The position numbers and the translations under genes were made by a program. Below the pieces are notes generated by a model. The model saw only the letters and a list, made by a program, of their open reading frames with translations. It made no database searches and had not been told where the DNA came from. DNA of 64,000 bases from Chloroflexota bacterium (GTDB lineage: Bacteria > Chloroflexota > UBA11872 > VXOZ01), in the NCBI GenBank assembly GCA_958295775.1, contig CATQHC010000002.1:889830-953829 (forward strand), written 5' to 3'. Shown in pieces: positions 44,495 to 51,677 of the stretch. Every line of letters begins with the position of its first letter. Position 1 is the stretch's first letter.

Positions 44495-44643
44495 AGTGCA
44501 CTTCCCGGGCTTTGAGTTCCGCGAATGCCTGTTGCGATGTGCGTGAAAGTGTTCTAAAGCAGACTCCTTTGAGGTTAAGACTTTACGGTTTAGAGAATGT
44601 AGTCTCACACCAATGTACGCATCCGCGCTCTTGTTGTCAGGGC

Positions 44644-44673
44644 TTGACTGGCAAGCTGCACAATGCCTAAAAT
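44644..44673 (+). promoter_or_regulatory. Sigma70-like promoter candidate TTGACT-N18-TAAAAT upstream of the leader-peptide gene
   Basis: TTGACT at 44644-44649 and TAAAAT at 44668-44673 with 18-nt spacing. Lies in a low-GC, roughly 420-nt intergenic region. Confidence 0.4.
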
Positions 44674-44915
44674 GAAAAGTGAGATCAATGATGATCGTCC
44701 CAACCGCCACTACAGGAATTGTTGCGAGACGAGCAAAGTTTGCGAAAGTAGCAATAGTTATGGTATATGAAAGTAATCGCTGCGGTTTCGACTGAGTTCT
44801 TGTCTAGGGCAAGTTCCTTGCAAGTTGCAAGACGGGACCGGGACTGGCGATGAAGCGTAGAGGCGAACTGGGATCCAATTGACCCTACGAAGCGCCAGAT
44901 TGGAAGGAAGGCACA

Positions 44916-48730: not shown

Positions 48731-48761
48731 CAAGCTGTGCCCTGCACGAGAAAACGACGTT

Positions 48762-51677
48762 ATGACACAAGAACAAGGTAGATTCCTGAGGGAATTCGCA
48801 ACCGCAAACGGTGAATCGGTTGCGAGCGCCGGCAACCGGCCACTTTGCTTAGATGATTCTACGATTGCCTGGTTCGTCGAGCATGGCGCGCTGGACGTCT
48901 TTCTCGTCGAGTACCAGGACGACAAGCCGTCTTCCCAGGCAAAGCACCTGCTGCGCGCTGAAGCGGGGCGCCTGGTCTTTGGGGCCGGTAGGAGTGGAGC
49001 CTTGGTCACGTTGGCCAAAGGCACCCCCGGCAGTCAACTACGCCGCCTCCACCTTGATTGCCTTCTGCAAGATAACATTGGCAACGAACTAGCCGACCAA
49101 GTCGCTGCGTGGATTACGGCATTCGCCGGGACCGTGGCATCGCAGATAGAGCTTCGCCCCCGAATCAGCCTCTTGCTTGACCCGGACGATCTCTCGGAAC
49201 CCCAAGATGCCGCCACAGGAAACGTCCTTTCGACCCGTCCGGGCGGCGTGGTCTGGGTCGATGTTGGCGACTCCGACGCAGTCTACTTGGGCACCGAAGA
49301 ACGAGACAAAGTGGGCACCGGCCTGGTGCCACTCACTTCCGATTCCTGGCTAACGCTCCAGTCTCCGGCCCAGGTCACCGGCACCTCAACTCAGAAGTTG
49401 CTCGATGAAGGAATGCTGCTAACAGCCTTGAGGGAGTTCCACCAACTCGCGCTCGGCGCAGAAAACATCAACAGGCTGCTGCTATTGGCAGATGAAGCAA
49501 ATGAGCAAACCGCCCGCACAGTCCACCGTCACCTCGATGAGGAACGCGCGAGACAAAGCCTTTTTCGTGTTCTGGCTTCACGGTATCCGACAGTTGCCGA
49601 TAGCGGCTCCTCAGTTCTCGCAGCGTTGGAAGTGATCGGCAAAAGAGAGGGGATCGACTTTCGCCTTCCTTCGCGGCGACGCCCATTCGTCGGTGCGGAG
49701 TTCTCACTTCAGGACATTCTGAACGCGTCGGGAGTGCGTAGTCGTAAAGTACGGCTCAGTGTCGAGGACCGTTGGTGGGTTGGCAACAGCGGCCCCTTGC
49801 TAGGCTATAGACAAGATGACGGTCAACCGGTAGCGCTGCTACCAAGTGTGACAGGCCGCTACCGTCTAGTGGACCCGGCATCCGGACATACCTCCCGTCT
49901 CAATGCGGAACAGGCAGCCACACTCCATGAAGATGCGTGGTCGTTCTACCGGCCTCTGCCATCCGACCGGACGCTTGTTCTCAAAGACATCTTCCCTTTT
50001 GCCACGAAGGGCATGGCCGAGGACTTTGGGCAATTTGCGGGAGCCGGCTTGCTAGCCAGCCTCCTTACCCTTGTGCCCGCAGTAGCAATAGGACTGCTTG
50101 CAGACTTGGTACTCCCGGCTGGAGTAGGAGGAATGGTCGTCCAAATCACCATAGCCTTGGCCGTATTTGCCGTCGTGGGAACCCTGCTGCAGATCCTACG
50201 AGGCACAGCAATGATGCGGCTTGGGGGACGGGCTTCCACCCGCGTAGGAGCCGCACTTTGGGACCGTCTGCTAGGTTTGCCGTCCAGCTTTTTCAGAAAC
50301 TTCACCGCCGGCGACTTAGTCGTCCGCATGTCGGCCTTCCAACACCTTCGTGACCGAGTGTCTGGAGCGGTTGCCAACGCTCTCATTGCACTGGTCTTCT
50401 TTCTGCCCATGCTCGGCCTGCTCTTCATCTATGACACTGCGCTGGCGTGGCTCAGCATCGGACTAGGACTATTCTCATTGGCCGTCACCTGCGCATTCGG
50501 CCTCCTACAAATAGGCCCTCAGCGCCGCCTGTTCGCATCTTCTCGGAGTCTGGCAGGCGAGCTCCTGCAATTCATCAATGGCATGAGCAAACTGCGGTCA
50601 GCCGGCGCGGAAGCGTCGGCATTCGCTGCGTGGGCGCGCGGCTATCGCGAGCAGCAGCAAGCACGTTTGCAGATTGGCAAGTTGAACGATCACCTAGTCG
50701 CCTTTAACGCCGCCATGCCAGCCTTCATGGGCGCAGCCCTATTTGGCATAGCGCTCCGGCTTGGCCCGGACCAACTCTCACTAGGCAGCTTCCTTGCCGT
50801 CTATGCGGTCTCAATCACGTTCTATGGGGCAATCATTGTGATGGGACAGTCCTTTGAGACCATCGCTTCGATAATTCCTAGCTATGAGCAAGTGAGGCCG
50901 ATCTTGGAGGCTGTACCGGAAGGCAGGCAGTCCGGCGCCGCACCAGCCGTTCTCAGCGGCGACGTGCGCTTTGATCACGTGAGTTTCCAGTACAGCAAAG
51001 AAGGGCCCCAAACTATCAATGATGTCTACATTCACGCCCGCCCTGGCGAGTTCATTGCCATAGTGGGCGAATCGGGCGCCGGCAAGAGCACGCTCATGCG
51101 CCTGGCGCTTGGCCTTGAAAAACCCTCCGTTGGCGGCATCTACTATGGTGGAAGTGAACTCGCCCACCTTGACCGGCGCTCCGTACGTCGCCAGATTGGC
51201 GTCGTGACTCAAGGCGGCGCCCTCAAGCCCGGCAACCTCTTGGACAACATCATCGGCATGGGAGATGAGCTATCGATTGAGGATGCGTGGCGCGCGGCCA
51301 AACTGGCTGCCGTAGATAAGGAAATCGAAGCCATGCCCATGCAGATGTTTACACCCGTCGGCGACTCAGCCTCAAACTTCTCCGGCGGCCAGATTCAACG
51401 CATCAAAATCGCCGCTGCCCTCGTGCGGGACCCTCGCATTGTGTTCCTCGACGAGGCAACCAGTTGGCTCGACGCCAAGAGTCAGGCCCAAGTCATGGAG
51501 GGTATCGAACGGCTTGCCGCCACGCGGATCGTAATCGCCCACCGGCTCTCAACTATCCGCAAGGCAGAACGCATTTACGTGCTGCATCAGGGTCGCATTG
51601 TCCAAGCGGGCAGCTTTAGCGAGCTCTACGATGCCGAAGGCATGTTTCGCACGCTGGTGCAGCGTCAAATGACGTAG
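48762..51677 (+). CDS. Second ABC transporter (permease + ATPase) with N-terminal cNMP-binding-like domain (NHLM bacteriocin-system ATP-binding protein type)
   Basis: 971 aa. N-terminal roughly 150-aa beta-rich domain (LCLDDSTIAWFVEHGALDVFLVEY). Walker A GESGAGKST, signature FSGGQIQRIKIAAAL, Walker B IVFLDEATS. Confidence 0.85.
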   Translation: MTQEQGRFLREFATANGESVASAGNRPLCLDDSTIAWFVEHGALDVFLVEYQDDKPSSQAKHLLRAEAGRLVFGAGRSGALVTLAKGTPGSQLRRLHLDCLLQDNIGNELADQVAAWITAFAGTVASQIELRPRISLLLDPDDLSEPQDAATGNVLSTRPGGVVWVDVGDSDAVYLGTEERDKVGTGLVPLTSDSWLTLQSPAQVTGTSTQKLLDEGMLLTALREFHQLALGAENINRLLLLADEANEQTARTVHRHLDEERARQSLFRVLASRYPTVADSGSSVLAALEVIGKREGIDFRLPSRRRPFVGAEFSLQDILNASGVRSRKVRLSVEDRWWVGNSGPLLGYRQDDGQPVALLPSVTGRYRLVDPASGHTSRLNAEQAATLHEDAWSFYRPLPSDRTLVLKDIFPFATKGMAEDFGQFAGAGLLASLLTLVPAVAIGLLADLVLPAGVGGMVVQITIALAVFAVVGTLLQILRGTAMMRLGGRASTRVGAALWDRLLGLPSSFFRNFTAGDLVVRMSAFQHLRDRVSGAVANALIALVFFLPMLGLLFIYDTALAWLSIGLGLFSLAVTCAFGLLQIGPQRRLFASSRSLAGELLQFINGMSKLRSAGAEASAFAAWARGYREQQQARLQIGKLNDHLVAFNAAMPAFMGAALFGIALRLGPDQLSLGSFLAVYAVSITFYGAIIVMGQSFETIASIIPSYEQVRPILEAVPEGRQSGAAPAVLSGDVRFDHVSFQYSKEGPQTINDVYIHARPGEFIAIVGESGAGKSTLMRLALGLEKPSVGGIYYGGSELAHLDRRSVRRQIGVVTQGGALKPGNLLDNIIGMGDELSIEDAWRAAKLAAVDKEIEAMPMQMFTPVGDSASNFSGGQIQRIKIAAALVRDPRIVFLDEATSWLDAKSQAQVMEGIERLAATRIVIAHRLSTIRKAERIYVLHQGRIVQAGSFSELYDAEGMFRTLVQRQMT

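What the first reader, a model, noticed from the sequence alone, without database searches (positions are those of the whole stretch)
44495..51677. Double-glycine leader peptide gene with a dedicated HlyD + C39-ABC + cNMP-domain-ABC export module and no recognisable modification enzyme
A 63-aa ORF with a strong ribosome-binding site ends its leader in MTEDELEEAVGG, a textbook GG-leader. After a terminator and a roughly 450-nt spacer, three transport genes follow: a HlyD adaptor (TTG start), an ABC transporter carrying an intact C39 peptidase domain (catalytic Cys and His present), and a second 971-aa ABC transporter with an N-terminal cyclic-nucleotide-binding-like domain. This tripartite arrangement is the NHLM/NHLP (Nif11/nitrile-hydratase-leader) bacteriocin export system. 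Here it is paired with a short classical GG precursor instead of the long NHLP/Nif11 leaders. No LanM/LanB/cyclodehydratase/radical-SAM gene lies within about 8 kb on either side. The peptide may be exported unmodified as a pheromone or bacteriocin, or modified by unlinked or unrecognised enzymes. I could not find an analogue of this precursor from memory.
Basis: partly seen in the sequence, partly recalled or inferred. Interest (0 to 1): 0.85.

Follow-up and report, generated by a model that had tools for sequence, protein, structure and literature searches.

The report
Exported peptide gene with dedicated transporter
A Chloroflexota bacterium, probably a sponge or coral symbiont, carries a self-contained cassette that makes a small acidic peptide, cuts off its leader and exports it; the transporter is a known type, but the peptide family is new, rare and of unknown function.

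Summary
Window 44495-51677 holds a 63-aa ORF whose leader ends in GEMTEDELEEAVGG. It is followed by a terminator, a ~0.5-kb spacer, a short HlyD-type adaptor (conserved TTG start) and two ABC transporters.

- **Transporters.** The first passes TIGR03796 (896 vs 853 bits) and has an intact C39 protease domain. The second passes TIGR03797 (745 vs 709 bits). The HlyD homologue fails TIGR03794 (89 vs 156 bits).
- **Second ABC protein.** Its N-terminus has no Pfam match. An AlphaFold model shows two tandem cyclic-nucleotide-binding-like domains plus a degenerate C39-like domain.
- **The ORF is a real gene.** Twelve syntenic Chloroflexota loci keep the ATG, the ribosome-binding site and the frame (dN/dS 0.08-0.29). 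The leader box and a C-terminal WWx(D/N)P(N/D) motif are invariant. In five relatives the whole cassette is inverted as one unit.
- **No tailoring enzyme** was found among the window ORFs scanned. The adjacent methyltransferase is not part of the unit.
- **Rarity.** An exhaustive search of 1.84 billion representative proteins found only this small family, unnamed or "hypothetical protein".

The architecture matches the NHLP-type export system and cyanobacterial "group V" double-glycine clusters. This is a new member of a known kind. Moderate interest.

The parts
44644..44673 (+). Promoter of the precursor gene: -35 TTGACT, 18-nt spacer, -10 TAAAAT
   Evidence: The consensus scan gives 10 of 12 matches. 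TTGAC and the TAnnAT box are conserved in all 13 orthologous loci, while the sequence upstream of the -35 box is not alignable.
44681..44708 (+). Invariant element at the predicted transcript start. It comprises the palindrome/hairpin GAGATCAATGATGATCGT and CCCAACCGCC, the 5' arm of a long-range helix.
   Evidence: The pattern GATCAANGNNGATCGTCCCAA occurs once in the window (44683-44703) and exactly once in each of 9 of the 12 orthologous loci, always upstream of the precursor. RNAalifold predicts the hairpin and the helix. Pair counts: 94.7% of cells paired, against 24-50% when the partner is slid.
44862..44872 (+). 3' arm (GGCGAACTGGG) of the long-range 5'UTR helix, which closes a ~150-190-nt variable domain
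   Evidence: Three pairs show changes on both sides (reached by 7 of 500 shuffles). In the window itself the helix needs a shifted register.
44902..44911 (+). Ribosome-binding site GGAAGGAAGG, ending 4 nt before the ATG
   Evidence: Read from the sequence. A GGAGG/GGAAGG motif sits at the same position in all orthologues.
44916..45026 (+). Leader part of the precursor (37 aa). The N-terminal ~20 aa are variable; the box GE[ML]TEDE[LM]xxAVGG is invariant.
   Evidence: Alignment A2 and further cluster members. The box matches the acidic / Leu / Ser-Thr / Val logo that Haft et al. give for the cleavage region of NHLP/Nif11 leaders (PMC2887384).
45027..45107 (+). Core peptide (26 aa, VSSGEEQSPESAEESSGSRWWTDPDR) plus stop codon. 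No Cys, net charge about -5, monoisotopic mass 2894.223 Da.
   Evidence: Conserved elements are an N-terminal x-x-x-x-(D/E)-E and a C-terminal G/R-W-W-x-(D/N)-P-(N/D/K)-x; the middle is hypervariable. dN/dS is 0.08-0.29 over the whole ORF.
45131..45180 (+). Intrinsic terminator (16-bp stem, T-rich tail) ending the precursor transcript
   Evidence: A hairpin is present at the same place in every orthologue, with different stem sequences, so structure rather than sequence is conserved.
45181..45573 (.). Spacer of conserved length (380-563 nt in total in relatives) but unconserved sequence. It holds no conserved ORF.
   Evidence: Alignment of 13 spacers. An ORF comparison found no meaningful cross-lineage protein match and no conserved hydrophobic ORF, so no immunity gene candidate. 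No Rfam family reached its threshold.
45574..45584 (+). Conserved block ACGGTAGAATA, read as a -10 element (TAGAAT, 45578-45583) of a separate promoter for the transporter genes
   Evidence: This is the only nearly invariant block of the spacer across 13 loci. Promoter function is inferred.
45633..46520 (+). Short HlyD-family adaptor (295 aa), TTG start preceded by GGAG at 45621-45624
   Evidence: Pfam HlyD_3 at 3e-11. TIGR03794 scores 89.1 bits, below the 156.2 cut-off. The start codon is conserved. Homologues in 61 loci have a median length of 306 aa.
46535..48730 (+). C39-peptidase / permease / ATPase ABC transporter (731 aa). The protease domain spans residues 18-144 (46586-46966).
   Evidence: TIGR03796 896.1 bits against a cut-off of 853.3. 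Peptidase_C39, ABC_membrane and ABC_tran are all found. Gln21, Cys27, His100 and Asp116 align to LahT150 and PCAT1.
48762..51677 (+). Second ABC transporter (971 aa). Order of domains: two tandem cyclic-nucleotide-binding-like domains (residues ~18-215; 48813-49406), a long helix, a C39-like domain without catalytic Cys or His (residues 284-423; 49611-50030), then permease and ATPase.

Best explanation
**What it is.** This is a self-contained peptide-secretion cassette with two transcription units.

- **Unit 1** is the precursor gene. It has its own sigma-70-type promoter, a ~235-nt 5'UTR that appears structured, a strong ribosome-binding site and its own terminator. This layout should give abundant monocistronic mRNA.
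- **Unit 2** has its own -10 element. It encodes a short HlyD-type adaptor and two ABC half-transporters.

**How it most likely works.**
1. The 63-aa precursor is recognised through the invariant GE(M/L)TEDE(L/M)xxAVGG box.
2. The C39 domain of the first ABC protein (Cys27/His100/Asp116) cuts after Gly37.
3. The 26-aa acidic, Cys-free core is pumped out, probably by a heteromeric transporter built from both ABC proteins with the adaptor.
4. The tandem CNB-like domains and the dead C39-like domain of the second ABC protein probably act as a cytoplasmic ligand sensor and substrate dock that gate export. The HetC precedent for this binds ppGpp.

**Probable state and role of the peptide.** The leader keeps only the transporter-recognition box. 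It lacks the NHase-like or Nif11-like domain that tailoring enzymes bind. No tailoring or immunity gene travels with the cassette. So the peptide is most likely released unmodified or only lightly modified. It more likely acts as a signal or as a host- or community-interaction factor through its conserved C-terminal WWx(D/N)P(N/D) motif than as a membrane-active bacteriocin.

**Shown here:** gene reality, family membership of the two ABC proteins, catalytic residues, domain folds, cassette unity.

**Inferred:** cleavage site, heteromer formation, lack of modification, biological role.
For: **The ORF is a real gene.**
- 12 syntenic orthologues keep the ATG, the Shine-Dalgarno motif and the frame, with dN/dS 0.08-0.29.
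- 37 distinct sequences fall in 4 clusters at 90% identity.

**The cassette is one unit.**
- In L005 and L009-L012, promoter through second ABC gene is inverted as a block between the same flanking genes. Homology begins exactly at the -35 box.

**Transporter identity.**
- TIGR03796 and TIGR03797 score above their cut-offs.
- The C39 catalytic residues align to LahT150 and PCAT1.
- Canonical Walker A, signature and Walker B-Glu motifs can be read in both ATPase domains.

**Domain folds of the second ABC protein**.

**Two transcription units.**
- Conserved promoter and structurally conserved terminator for the precursor.
- Conserved TAGAAT and GGAG before HlyD.

**No tailoring or immunity gene.**
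- Neighbours are a hydantoinase, an oxidase, a solute-binding protein, a C45 hydrolase, a lyase, an M20 peptidase and similar.
- There is no conserved ORF in the spacer.
- The methyltransferase changes side and orientation relative to the cassette and is absent from all non-clade loci.

**Precedents.**
- Roughly 25 related loci in other phyla pair the same transporter with short-leader, largely Cys-free hydrophilic peptides.
- HetC carries a CNB domain on a peptidase ABC exporter, binds ppGpp in vitro and needs the domain in vivo (PMC10986499).
- EbfG/PteB shows that GG-motif peptides can have non-antibiotic roles (PMC4997328).
Against: - No expression, cleavage or export data exist for this peptide.
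- The HlyD homologue fails its family cut-off.
- Invariant Trp-Trp and Pro residues in the core could equally mark a site for modification by an enzyme encoded elsewhere. Only 64 kb of a roughly 3.5-Mb genome was seen.
- No receptor, histidine kinase or regulator gene lies next to the cassette, as would be expected for a classical peptide pheromone.
- The CNB-like domains lack a recognisable phosphate-binding cassette and have no sequence-level match, so a sensor role is only an analogy.
- Whether the two ABC proteins form a heterodimer or two homodimers is unknown.
Confidence: 0.6

Rival explanations
1. The peptide is a true RiPP. After translation, the invariant Trp-Trp / Asp-Pro region, or the (D/E)E region, is modified by enzymes encoded elsewhere in the genome or by an unrecognised neighbour. 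Possible chemistry includes halogenation, cross-linking, prenylation or hydroxylation. The cassette then cleaves and exports the product.
For: - W57, W58 and P61 are invariant while the middle of the core is hypervariable.
- Related transporters in other phyla sit next to NHLP-type precursors whose short cores almost all end in Trp. Sponge-microbiome srp proteusins are brominated on a terminal Trp (bioRxiv 10.1101/2023.06.09.544420).
- Haft et al. note that precursors and tailoring genes are often unlinked (PMC2887384).
- Two upstream proteins (321 aa and 611 aa) have no family assignment, and a generic SAM methyltransferase is adjacent.
Against: - The leader lacks the NHase-like or Nif11-like domain that proteusin tailoring enzymes are reported to engage (PMC10858898; abstract of PMC12537861).
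- The core has no Cys.
- No tailoring gene moves with the cassette when it inverts.
- The flanking unknown proteins are 82-94% conserved, while HlyD, the second ABC protein and the precursor are 50-71% conserved. The flanks therefore evolve like housekeeping genes.
- No recurrent enzyme family appeared among the gene families annotated from the ~25 other short-leader loci.
Confidence: 0.25
2. The peptide is an unmodified class-II-type bacteriocin or microcin that kills competitors. The ABC exporter doubles as the producer's immunity.
For: - GG-leader peptides with C39-ABC and HlyD-type accessory proteins are the classical bacteriocin and microcin export route (PMC3140520; PMC10986499 introduction).
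- NCBI names the transporter families 'bacteriocin export'.
- The cassette evolves faster than its flanks, as expected for a conflict system.
Against: - The core is strongly anionic (charge about -5, GRAVY -1.7) and has no amphipathic or hydrophobic stretch.
- There is no conserved small hydrophobic immunity ORF in or beside the cassette.
- The gene is single-copy, with a conserved C-terminal motif rather than a diversified toxin domain.
Confidence: 0.1
3. The 63-aa ORF is a chance ORF in a long leader region. The transporter would then export something encoded elsewhere.
For: The ORF is short and compositionally biased, and it has no family match.
Against: - The start codon, Shine-Dalgarno motif, frame and stop are conserved in 13 loci, with dS up to >1 and dN/dS 0.08-0.29.
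- An invariant 14-residue GG box sits at the position expected for a C39 substrate.
- The gene has its own promoter and terminator.
- It inverts together with the transporter.
Confidence: 0.02

Closest known systems
NHLP/Nif11-associated three-gene export system (TIGR03794 HlyD-like, TIGR03796 C39-ABC, TIGR03797 second ABC; Haft et al. 2010, PMC2887384)
   Same: The gene trio, its order and its co-orientation are the same. Both ABC proteins score above the curated equivalog cut-offs. The leader's last 13 residues fit the acidic/Leu/Thr/Val/GG logo given for NHLP and Nif11 cleavage regions.
   Different: The precursor is 63 aa with a 37-aa leader. It lacks the NHase-like or Nif11-like domain and does not match TIGR03793 or TIGR03798. 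The adaptor is ~125 aa shorter than the TIGR03794 model and fails its cut-off. No TOMM or lanthipeptide enzymes are nearby.
Cyanobacterial double-glycine bacteriocin gene clusters, 'group V' of Wang et al. 2011 (PMC3140520; domain summary in PMC4558948)
   Same: The parts list is the same: HlyD, a short-type C39-ABC, a module of two CAP_ED (CRP/cNMP-effector-like) domains, an additional ABC transporter without an active peptidase, and GG-leader precursors.
   Different: Here the two CAP_ED-like domains are fused to the second ABC protein and are too diverged for a Pfam match. The host is a Chloroflexota bacterium, not a cyanobacterium. The precursor family is unrelated to those listed for cyanobacteria.
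LahT / PCAT1 / ComA peptidase-containing ABC transporters (solved structures 6MPZ, 4RY2, 3K8U)
   Same: The C39 domain aligns to LahT150 over 144 residues at E 1.3e-37, with the Gln/Cys/His/Asp catalytic set conserved. The expected mechanism is the same: cleavage after GG coupled to export.
   Different: Those transporters are single-gene homodimers. Here a second, non-proteolytic ABC protein with sensor-like domains is always co-encoded (81 of 81 loci).
HetC of Nostoc PCC 7120 (PMC10986499)
   Same: It is a peptide-exporting ABC protein with an N-terminal cyclic-nucleotide-binding-type domain. That domain is needed for function and binds a non-cNMP ligand (ppGpp) in vitro. A signalling rather than an antibiotic role has been proposed.
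   Different: In HetC the CNB domain and an active C39 domain sit on one protein, with no adjacent HlyD and no known substrate gene. Here the substrate gene is adjacent, and the CNB-like domains are tandem and sit on the non-proteolytic partner.
srp proteusins of sponge microbiomes (Nguyen et al. 2021; PMC9426513; bioRxiv 10.1101/2023.06.09.544420)
   Same: The apparent habitat is shared (sponge and coral symbiont MAGs of many phyla). Both have a GG-cleaved precursor and a conserved Trp near the C-terminus. The precursor is a separate small gene, which in srp clusters is very highly transcribed.
   Different: srp precursors have long NHLP leaders and an LCCCW core, and they sit with YcaO and halogenase genes. 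None of these is present here.
EbfG1-4 / PteB of Synechococcus elongatus (PMC4997328)
   Same: These are small GG-motif peptides processed by a C39 transporter, with a non-antibiotic extracellular role in biofilm formation.
   Different: There is no sequence similarity. EbfG genes are multi-copy, and their role was shown genetically. Nothing is known about the role of the peptide here.

Membership tests
NHLP-type bacteriocin export system (TIGR03794/03796/03797) | C39-peptidase ABC subunit scores above the TIGR03796 cut-off | tested here: met
   896.1 bits against 853.3, covering residues 16-729 of 731.
NHLP-type bacteriocin export system (TIGR03794/03796/03797) | Second ABC subunit scores above the TIGR03797 cut-off | tested here: met
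   745 bits against 709.4, covering residues 284-970.
NHLP-type bacteriocin export system (TIGR03794/03796/03797) | HlyD-like subunit scores above the TIGR03794 cut-off | tested here: not met
   89.1 bits against 156.2. The protein is 295 aa against a 421-position model. It is still a HlyD-family protein (Pfam HlyD_3, 44 bits against 22).
NHLP-type bacteriocin export system (TIGR03794/03796/03797) | The three genes are adjacent and co-directional | tested here: met
   45633-51677 on the + strand with gaps of 14 and 31 nt. The same trio occurs in all 81 complete related loci.
NHLP / Nif11 (proteusin-type) precursor | Long leader with a nitrile-hydratase-alpha-like or Nif11-like domain (TIGR03793 / TIGR03798) | tested here: not met
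   No NCBIfam or Pfam hit for the 63-aa protein. The leader is 37 aa, against an average of 70-83 in Haft et al..
Peptidase-containing ABC transporter (PCAT/AMS) with GG-leader substrate | C39 domain with catalytic Cys and His (plus the Gln oxyanion and Asp residues) | tested here: met
   Gln21, Cys27, His100 and Asp116 align with LahT150 and PCAT1.
Peptidase-containing ABC transporter (PCAT/AMS) with GG-leader substrate | The substrate is cleaved after the Gly-Gly of its leader | not testable with these tools
   Only the sequence motif is seen. It is invariant in 13 loci and 37 sequences.
Cyanobacterial group V GG-bacteriocin cluster (Wang et al. 2011) | HlyD + short C39-ABC + two-CAP_ED module + ABC without an active peptidase + GG precursor | tested here: met
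   All parts are present. The two CAP_ED-like domains are fused to the second ABC protein and are recognised by fold only.
Cyclic-nucleotide-binding domain (Pfam PF00027) | Sequence match to the family model, and a phosphate-binding cassette | tested here: not met
   No Pfam hit at E<=10 for residues 1-284. No precomputed PF00027 hit in 39 homologues. Invariant residues are W117, W165, P190 and W196, not a Gly-Glu...Arg-Ser/Thr-Ala cassette.
Cyclic-nucleotide-binding domain (Pfam PF00027) | CNB / CRP-effector beta-barrel fold | tested here: met
Class II bacteriocin / GG-leader pheromone locus (ComC/BlpC type) | Adjacent immunity gene, or an adjacent histidine kinase and response regulator | tested here: not met
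   There is no conserved ORF in the spacer. No kinase or regulator was found among the ORFs scanned by Pfam, from about 11 kb upstream to about 12 kb downstream.
srp-type sponge proteusin cluster | NHLP precursor with a Cys-rich core, plus YcaO and flavin-dependent halogenase genes | tested here: not met
   The leader is short and the core has no Cys. No YcaO or halogenase domain was found among the window ORFs scanned.

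The most novel reading that the evidence does not exclude
The window's cassette may be one example of a habitat-wide phenomenon. 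A distinctive exporter is shared at 53-94% identity by symbionts of at least seven phyla or classes, which suggests horizontal spread within sponge and coral microbiomes. The exporter combines a short HlyD, a C39-ABC and an ABC protein with tandem CNB-like and C39-like domains. In many of these genomes it is paired not with proteusin RiPPs but with short-leader, largely Cys-free, acidic or Pro/Ser/Gly-rich, probably disordered peptides. These would be an unrecognised class of unmodified exported peptides used for symbiont-symbiont or symbiont-host signalling, with export gated by an intracellular ligand sensed by the CNB-like domains.
Probability: 0.2. Interest if true: 0.7.

Novelty: new member of a known kind. 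Interest (0 to 1): 0.4.

Why it matters
- **A substrate is known.** Peptidase-ABC exporters with sensor domains, such as HetC, have been hard to study because their substrates are unknown. Here the substrate gene sits next to the exporter, so cleavage, export and ligand gating could be tested directly with a defined peptide.
- **The leader is minimal.** The peptide's leader consists of little more than the exporter-recognition box. This makes it a natural minimal secretion tag for this transporter class.
- **Possible ecological reach.** If the short-leader, largely Cys-free peptides seen beside the same exporter in many sponge-symbiont phyla are functional, they would add a class of unmodified secreted peptides to a field focused on heavily modified RiPPs.
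- **Modest on its own.** The export system and this cluster architecture were already described.

Tried and rejected
1. **Sequence test of the cNMP claim.** Pfam on residues 1-284 and 284-424 of the second ABC protein gave nothing at E<=10. The claim survives only at the fold level.
2. **Rfam on 44000-46000.** The only hit is a sub-threshold RsmY match (20 bits against 57) over the terminator. I treat it as chance.
3. **Inverted repeats at the cassette borders.** These could have explained the inversion. No convincing pair spans 44495-44640 and 51678-51722.
4. **Hidden gene in the 525-nt spacer (immunity protein or second peptide).** No ORF is conserved between lineages and no hydrophobic ORF is conserved.
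5. **More GG-leader peptides in the window.** None found.
6. **Wider family search.**
   - The word-indexed search of 5.8 billion proteins found 2 clusters.
   - Exhaustive phmmer of 1.84 billion representatives found 2 more.
   - A pattern scan of JGI metagenome contigs found none.
7. **Exact look-up of the C39-ABC protein.** Not on record.
8. **Methyltransferase as a tailoring enzyme.** Rejected as part of the cassette. It is a generic class I enzyme below every NCBIfam cut-off. It lies on the opposite side and in the opposite relative orientation in five relatives. It is absent from all non-clade loci.
9. **The first GG (SAGG, residues 23-24) as the cleavage site.** Rejected, because it reads ASG in most orthologues.
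11. **The original srp paper (PMC8780398).** Not held in the library.

Full report
**1. What is in the sequence**

The interval 44495-51677 begins right after the stop of a 611-aa upstream gene and ends at the stop of a 971-aa ABC gene.

- **Precursor ORF.** 44916-45107 encodes MSRQKSVSKEQPAAESESVESAGGEMTEDELEEAVGG|VSSGEEQSPESAEESSGSRWWTDPDR. The ribosome-binding site GGAAGGAAGG ends 4 nt before the ATG.
- **Promoter.** A sigma-70-like promoter (TTGACT, 18 nt, TAAAAT; 44644-44673) lies about 240 nt upstream.
- **Terminator.** A 16-bp hairpin with a T-rich tail (45131-45170) follows the stop codon.
- **Transport genes.** After a further 462 nt come three co-directional genes: 45633-46520 (295 aa, TTG start), 46535-48730 (731 aa) and 48762-51677 (971 aa).

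**2. The transport proteins**

- **Family scores.**
  - The 731-aa protein scores 896.1 bits on TIGR03796 (cut-off 853.3).
  - The 971-aa protein scores 745 bits on TIGR03797 (cut-off 709.4).
  - The 295-aa protein's best hit is TIGR03794, at only 89.1 bits against a cut-off of 156.2. Pfam still places it in the HlyD family.
- **Start codon.** The TTG start (GTG in two relatives), with GGAG 8-9 nt upstream, is conserved in all 13 orthologous loci. Several have an in-frame stop just upstream.
- **Short adaptor.** HlyD homologues in 61 related loci have a median length of 306 aa. The short form is therefore a trait of this transporter clade, not a truncation.
- **Protease domain.**
  - The C39 domain is closest to the solved double-glycine protease LahT150 (6MPZ, E 1.3e-37).
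  - Gln21, Cys27, His100 and Asp116 align with the catalytic residues.
- **ATPase motifs.** Both ATPase domains show canonical Walker A, signature and Walker B-Glu motifs (read).

**3. The N-terminus of the second ABC protein**

- **No sequence match.**
  - Residues 1-284 and 284-424 give no Pfam hit, even at E<=10.
  - None of 39 homologues carries a precomputed cNMP-binding annotation.
- **Predicted structure.** An AlphaFold model built on a 19-sequence alignment (pLDDT 87) shows, in order:
  - two tandem beta-barrel domains (about 18-126 and 137-215);
  - a long helix (219-272);
  - a third domain (284-423).
- **Fold matches for the barrels.**
  - Foldseek matches the tandem cyclic-nucleotide-binding domains of PKA and PKG regulatory subunits (E ~1e-6, probability 1.0).
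- **No catalytic or ligand motifs.**
  - The C39-like domain has no Cys or His at the catalytic positions (read from the sequence plus the model).
  - The invariant residues of the barrel domains (W117, W165, P190, W196) do not form a phosphate-binding cassette.
- **Verdict.** It is a tandem pair, and the ligand is unknown.
- **Distribution.** All 81 complete related loci have these domains.

**4. Is the small ORF a gene?**

Yes.

- **Database searches.**
  - A search of 5.8 billion proteins found an identical sequence and an 87%-identical one.
  - Exhaustive phmmer over 1.84 billion representatives found only two more clusters, at 52-55% identity.
  - In total there are 37 distinct sequences. 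The only name given is "hypothetical protein".
  - A pattern scan of JGI metagenome contigs found none.
- **Related loci.** A genome scan with the C39-ABC protein returned 80 loci.
  - Twelve Chloroflexota loci, one of them an ENA contig, carry an orthologue about 0.5 kb upstream of HlyD.
  - All keep an ATG, a GGAGG-like Shine-Dalgarno motif, the frame and the stop.
  - dN/dS is 0.08-0.29 while dS exceeds 1.
- **Conservation pattern.**
  - The N-terminal ~20 residues vary.
  - GE(M/L)TEDE(L/M)xxAVGG is invariant.
  - The core keeps (D/E)E near its start and G/R-W-W-x-(D/N)-P-(N/D) at its end, with a hypervariable middle.
  - The earlier "SAGG" is not conserved, so AVGG is the cleavage site.

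**5. The cassette is a unit with two transcription units**

- **Inversion as a block.**
  - In L005 and L009-L012, the block from the -35 box to the end of the second ABC gene is inverted between the same two flanking genes, the 611-aa gene and the methyltransferase.
  - Alignable sequence starts exactly at the -35 box.
  - No inverted repeats were found at the borders.
- **Faster evolution than the flanks.**
  - Flanking genes are 75-94% identical among these genomes.
  - The cassette genes are lower: HlyD 55-68%, second ABC 67-71%, precursor 50-56%. The first ABC, at 76-81%, overlaps the least-conserved flanks.
- **Precursor unit.**
  - The promoter is conserved.
  - It is followed by an invariant element, GATCAAnGnnGATCGTCCCAA, at the predicted transcript start. 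This element occurs once per locus.
  - The terminator is conserved as a structure, with different stem sequences in different lineages.
- **Transporter unit.**
  - The rest of the spacer is unconserved and holds no conserved ORF.
  - The exception is a nearly invariant ACGGTAGAATA block 50 nt before HlyD, which I read as a -10 element.

**6. No tailoring enzyme**

- **Annotated neighbours**, from about 11 kb upstream to 12 kb downstream:
  - hydantoinase A and B, an FAD oxidase and a solute-binding protein;
  - a C45-family acyltransferase/hydrolase and two unknown proteins;
  - a generic class I methyltransferase;
  - argininosuccinate lyase, an M20 peptidase and a Na/H exchanger.
- **The ten largest ORFs of the first 33 kb** are also housekeeping, restriction or sulfatase genes.
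- **The methyltransferase** flips side and orientation relative to the cassette in five relatives. It is absent from all loci outside this clade.
- **Other GG-leader ORFs.** The window has none.

**7. Wider context**

- **Who carries the exporter.**
  - The closest relatives of the exporter (53-94% identity) come from MAGs of Chloroflexota, Dehalococcoidia/SAR202, Caldilineaceae, Acidimicrobiia (Ca. Poriferisocius, Poriferisodalis, Aldehydirespirator), Gammaproteobacteria, Acidobacteriota, Alphaproteobacteria, Nitrospira and Gemmatimonadota.
  - Many record titles point to sponge or coral studies. The Acidimicrobiia families are described sponge symbionts (PMC11706023).
  - This habitat link is my inference from titles, not a tested statistic.
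- **What the exporter is paired with** in these loci:
  - About 17 have NHLP-type precursors, often in arrays, with short cores ending in Trp.
  - About 25 have short-leader peptides (ELTEDELDEVRGG-like) with largely Cys-free, hydrophilic, often Pro/Ser/Gly/Asp-rich cores.
  - The rest have none detected.

**8. Comparison with what is known**

- The three-gene export system is that of Haft et al. 2010. They already noted that it is more widespread than NHLP precursors (PMC2887384).
- The parts list matches "group V" of the cyanobacterial double-glycine clusters. Those have HlyD, a short C39-ABC, a two-CAP_ED module and an ABC without peptidase, with the two-CAP_ED protein encoded separately (PMC3140520; PMC4558948).
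- HetC is a precedent for a CNB-type domain on a peptidase ABC exporter. It binds ppGpp in vitro and is needed in vivo (PMC10986499).
- EbfG/PteB shows that GG-motif peptides can have non-antibiotic roles (PMC4997328).
- The sponge srp proteusins differ: they have NHLP leaders, an LCCCW core, and YcaO and halogenase genes.

**9. Mechanism and verdict**

The most likely mechanism is:
1. The precursor is transcribed abundantly from its own promoter.
2. It is recognised through the GG box and cut after Gly37 by the C39 domain.
3. The 26-aa core is exported. It has a monoisotopic mass of 2894.22 Da, a charge of about -5 and no Cys.
4. The second ABC protein acts as a docking and regulatory partner.

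The leader lacks an enzyme-recognition domain, and neither a tailoring gene nor an immunity gene travels with the cassette. I therefore favour an unmodified or lightly modified peptide with a signalling or interaction role over a bacteriocin. Modification of the invariant Trp-Trp region by an unlinked enzyme remains a serious rival.

The finding is correct, but it is a new member of a known kind. Interest is moderate (0.4).

Noticed in passing
window 44681-44708 and 44862-44872 (5'UTR of the precursor gene): The 5'UTR has an invariant 5' hairpin/palindrome (GATCA..TGATC) at the predicted transcript start. A long-range helix (CCCAACCGCC with GGCGAACTGGG) closes a variable domain of about 150-190 nt. 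94.7% of cells are paired, against 24-50% when the partner is slid, and three pairs show double changes. There is no Rfam match. This could be a regulatory RNA leader or a protein operator.
   Followed up: partly
L005, L009, L010, L011, L012 (compare window 44640-51680): The whole cassette, from promoter to second ABC gene, is inverted between the same two flanking genes in five related genomes. No inverted repeats are detectable at the borders.
   Followed up: partly
e.g. L082:7577-8707 (+); also L023, L031, L032, L039-L041, L044, L054, L057, L070, L074, L076, L077, L080: An unknown ~375-aa protein family with no Pfam or NCBIfam hit sits beside the same exporter in 15 loci from at least six phyla. 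Most of these are loci with NHLP-type precursors whose cores end in Trp. It is a candidate unrecognised tailoring enzyme.
   Followed up: partly
L044:15192-21985; L049:2294-6407; L043, L050, L045: These loci hold arrays of 3-9 NHLP-type precursor genes with conserved leaders and hypervariable short cores. Nearly all cores end in Trp, or in Trp plus 1-2 residues. This resembles the Trp-brominated srp proteusins. An FAD_binding_4 oxidase recurs in 6 other NHLP-type loci (L023, L031, L061, L070, L077, L082).
   Followed up: no
L048:7436-8725; L058:15428-15864; L062, L063, L013, L015: Short-leader GG peptides occur in 2-4 tandem copies with near-identical leaders and unrelated Cys-free, Pro/Ser/Gly/Asp-rich cores. 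Four copies in a Caldilineaceae MAG share the leader MAEKETRDTTQDPTAEKGQLDTSELEAIVGG. Dehalococcoidia cores share a 'GPDW' motif.
   Followed up: no
window 40596-44494: Directly upstream is a co-directional trio: an unknown 321-aa protein, a C45-family autoproteolytic acyltransferase/hydrolase (NF040521, 182 bits) and an unknown 611-aa protein (weak DUF4350). They are 82-94% conserved among relatives. The two unknowns have no family assignment.
   Followed up: partly
window 45040-45165: A weak Rfam RsmY match (20 bits, gathering score 57, E 0.038) overlaps the end of the precursor ORF and its terminator hairpin. It is most likely a chance match to a hairpin plus T-tract.
   Followed up: yes
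L002 (ENA contig_52) compared with window 34968-46520: A contig carries the identical precursor, but the neighbouring genes (hydantoinase A, the C45 hydrolase, the 611-aa gene, HlyD) are split into fragments. This looks like a frameshift-rich, uncorrected long-read assembly of the same organism.
   Followed up: no
window 12-2279 and 31584-32996: The window also holds a type I restriction enzyme R subunit, cut by the window start, and a sulfatase. A methionine-salvage / SAM-cycle group (SAM synthetase, AdoHcy hydrolase, IF-2B-family isomerase) lies at 13158-18743.
   Followed up: no
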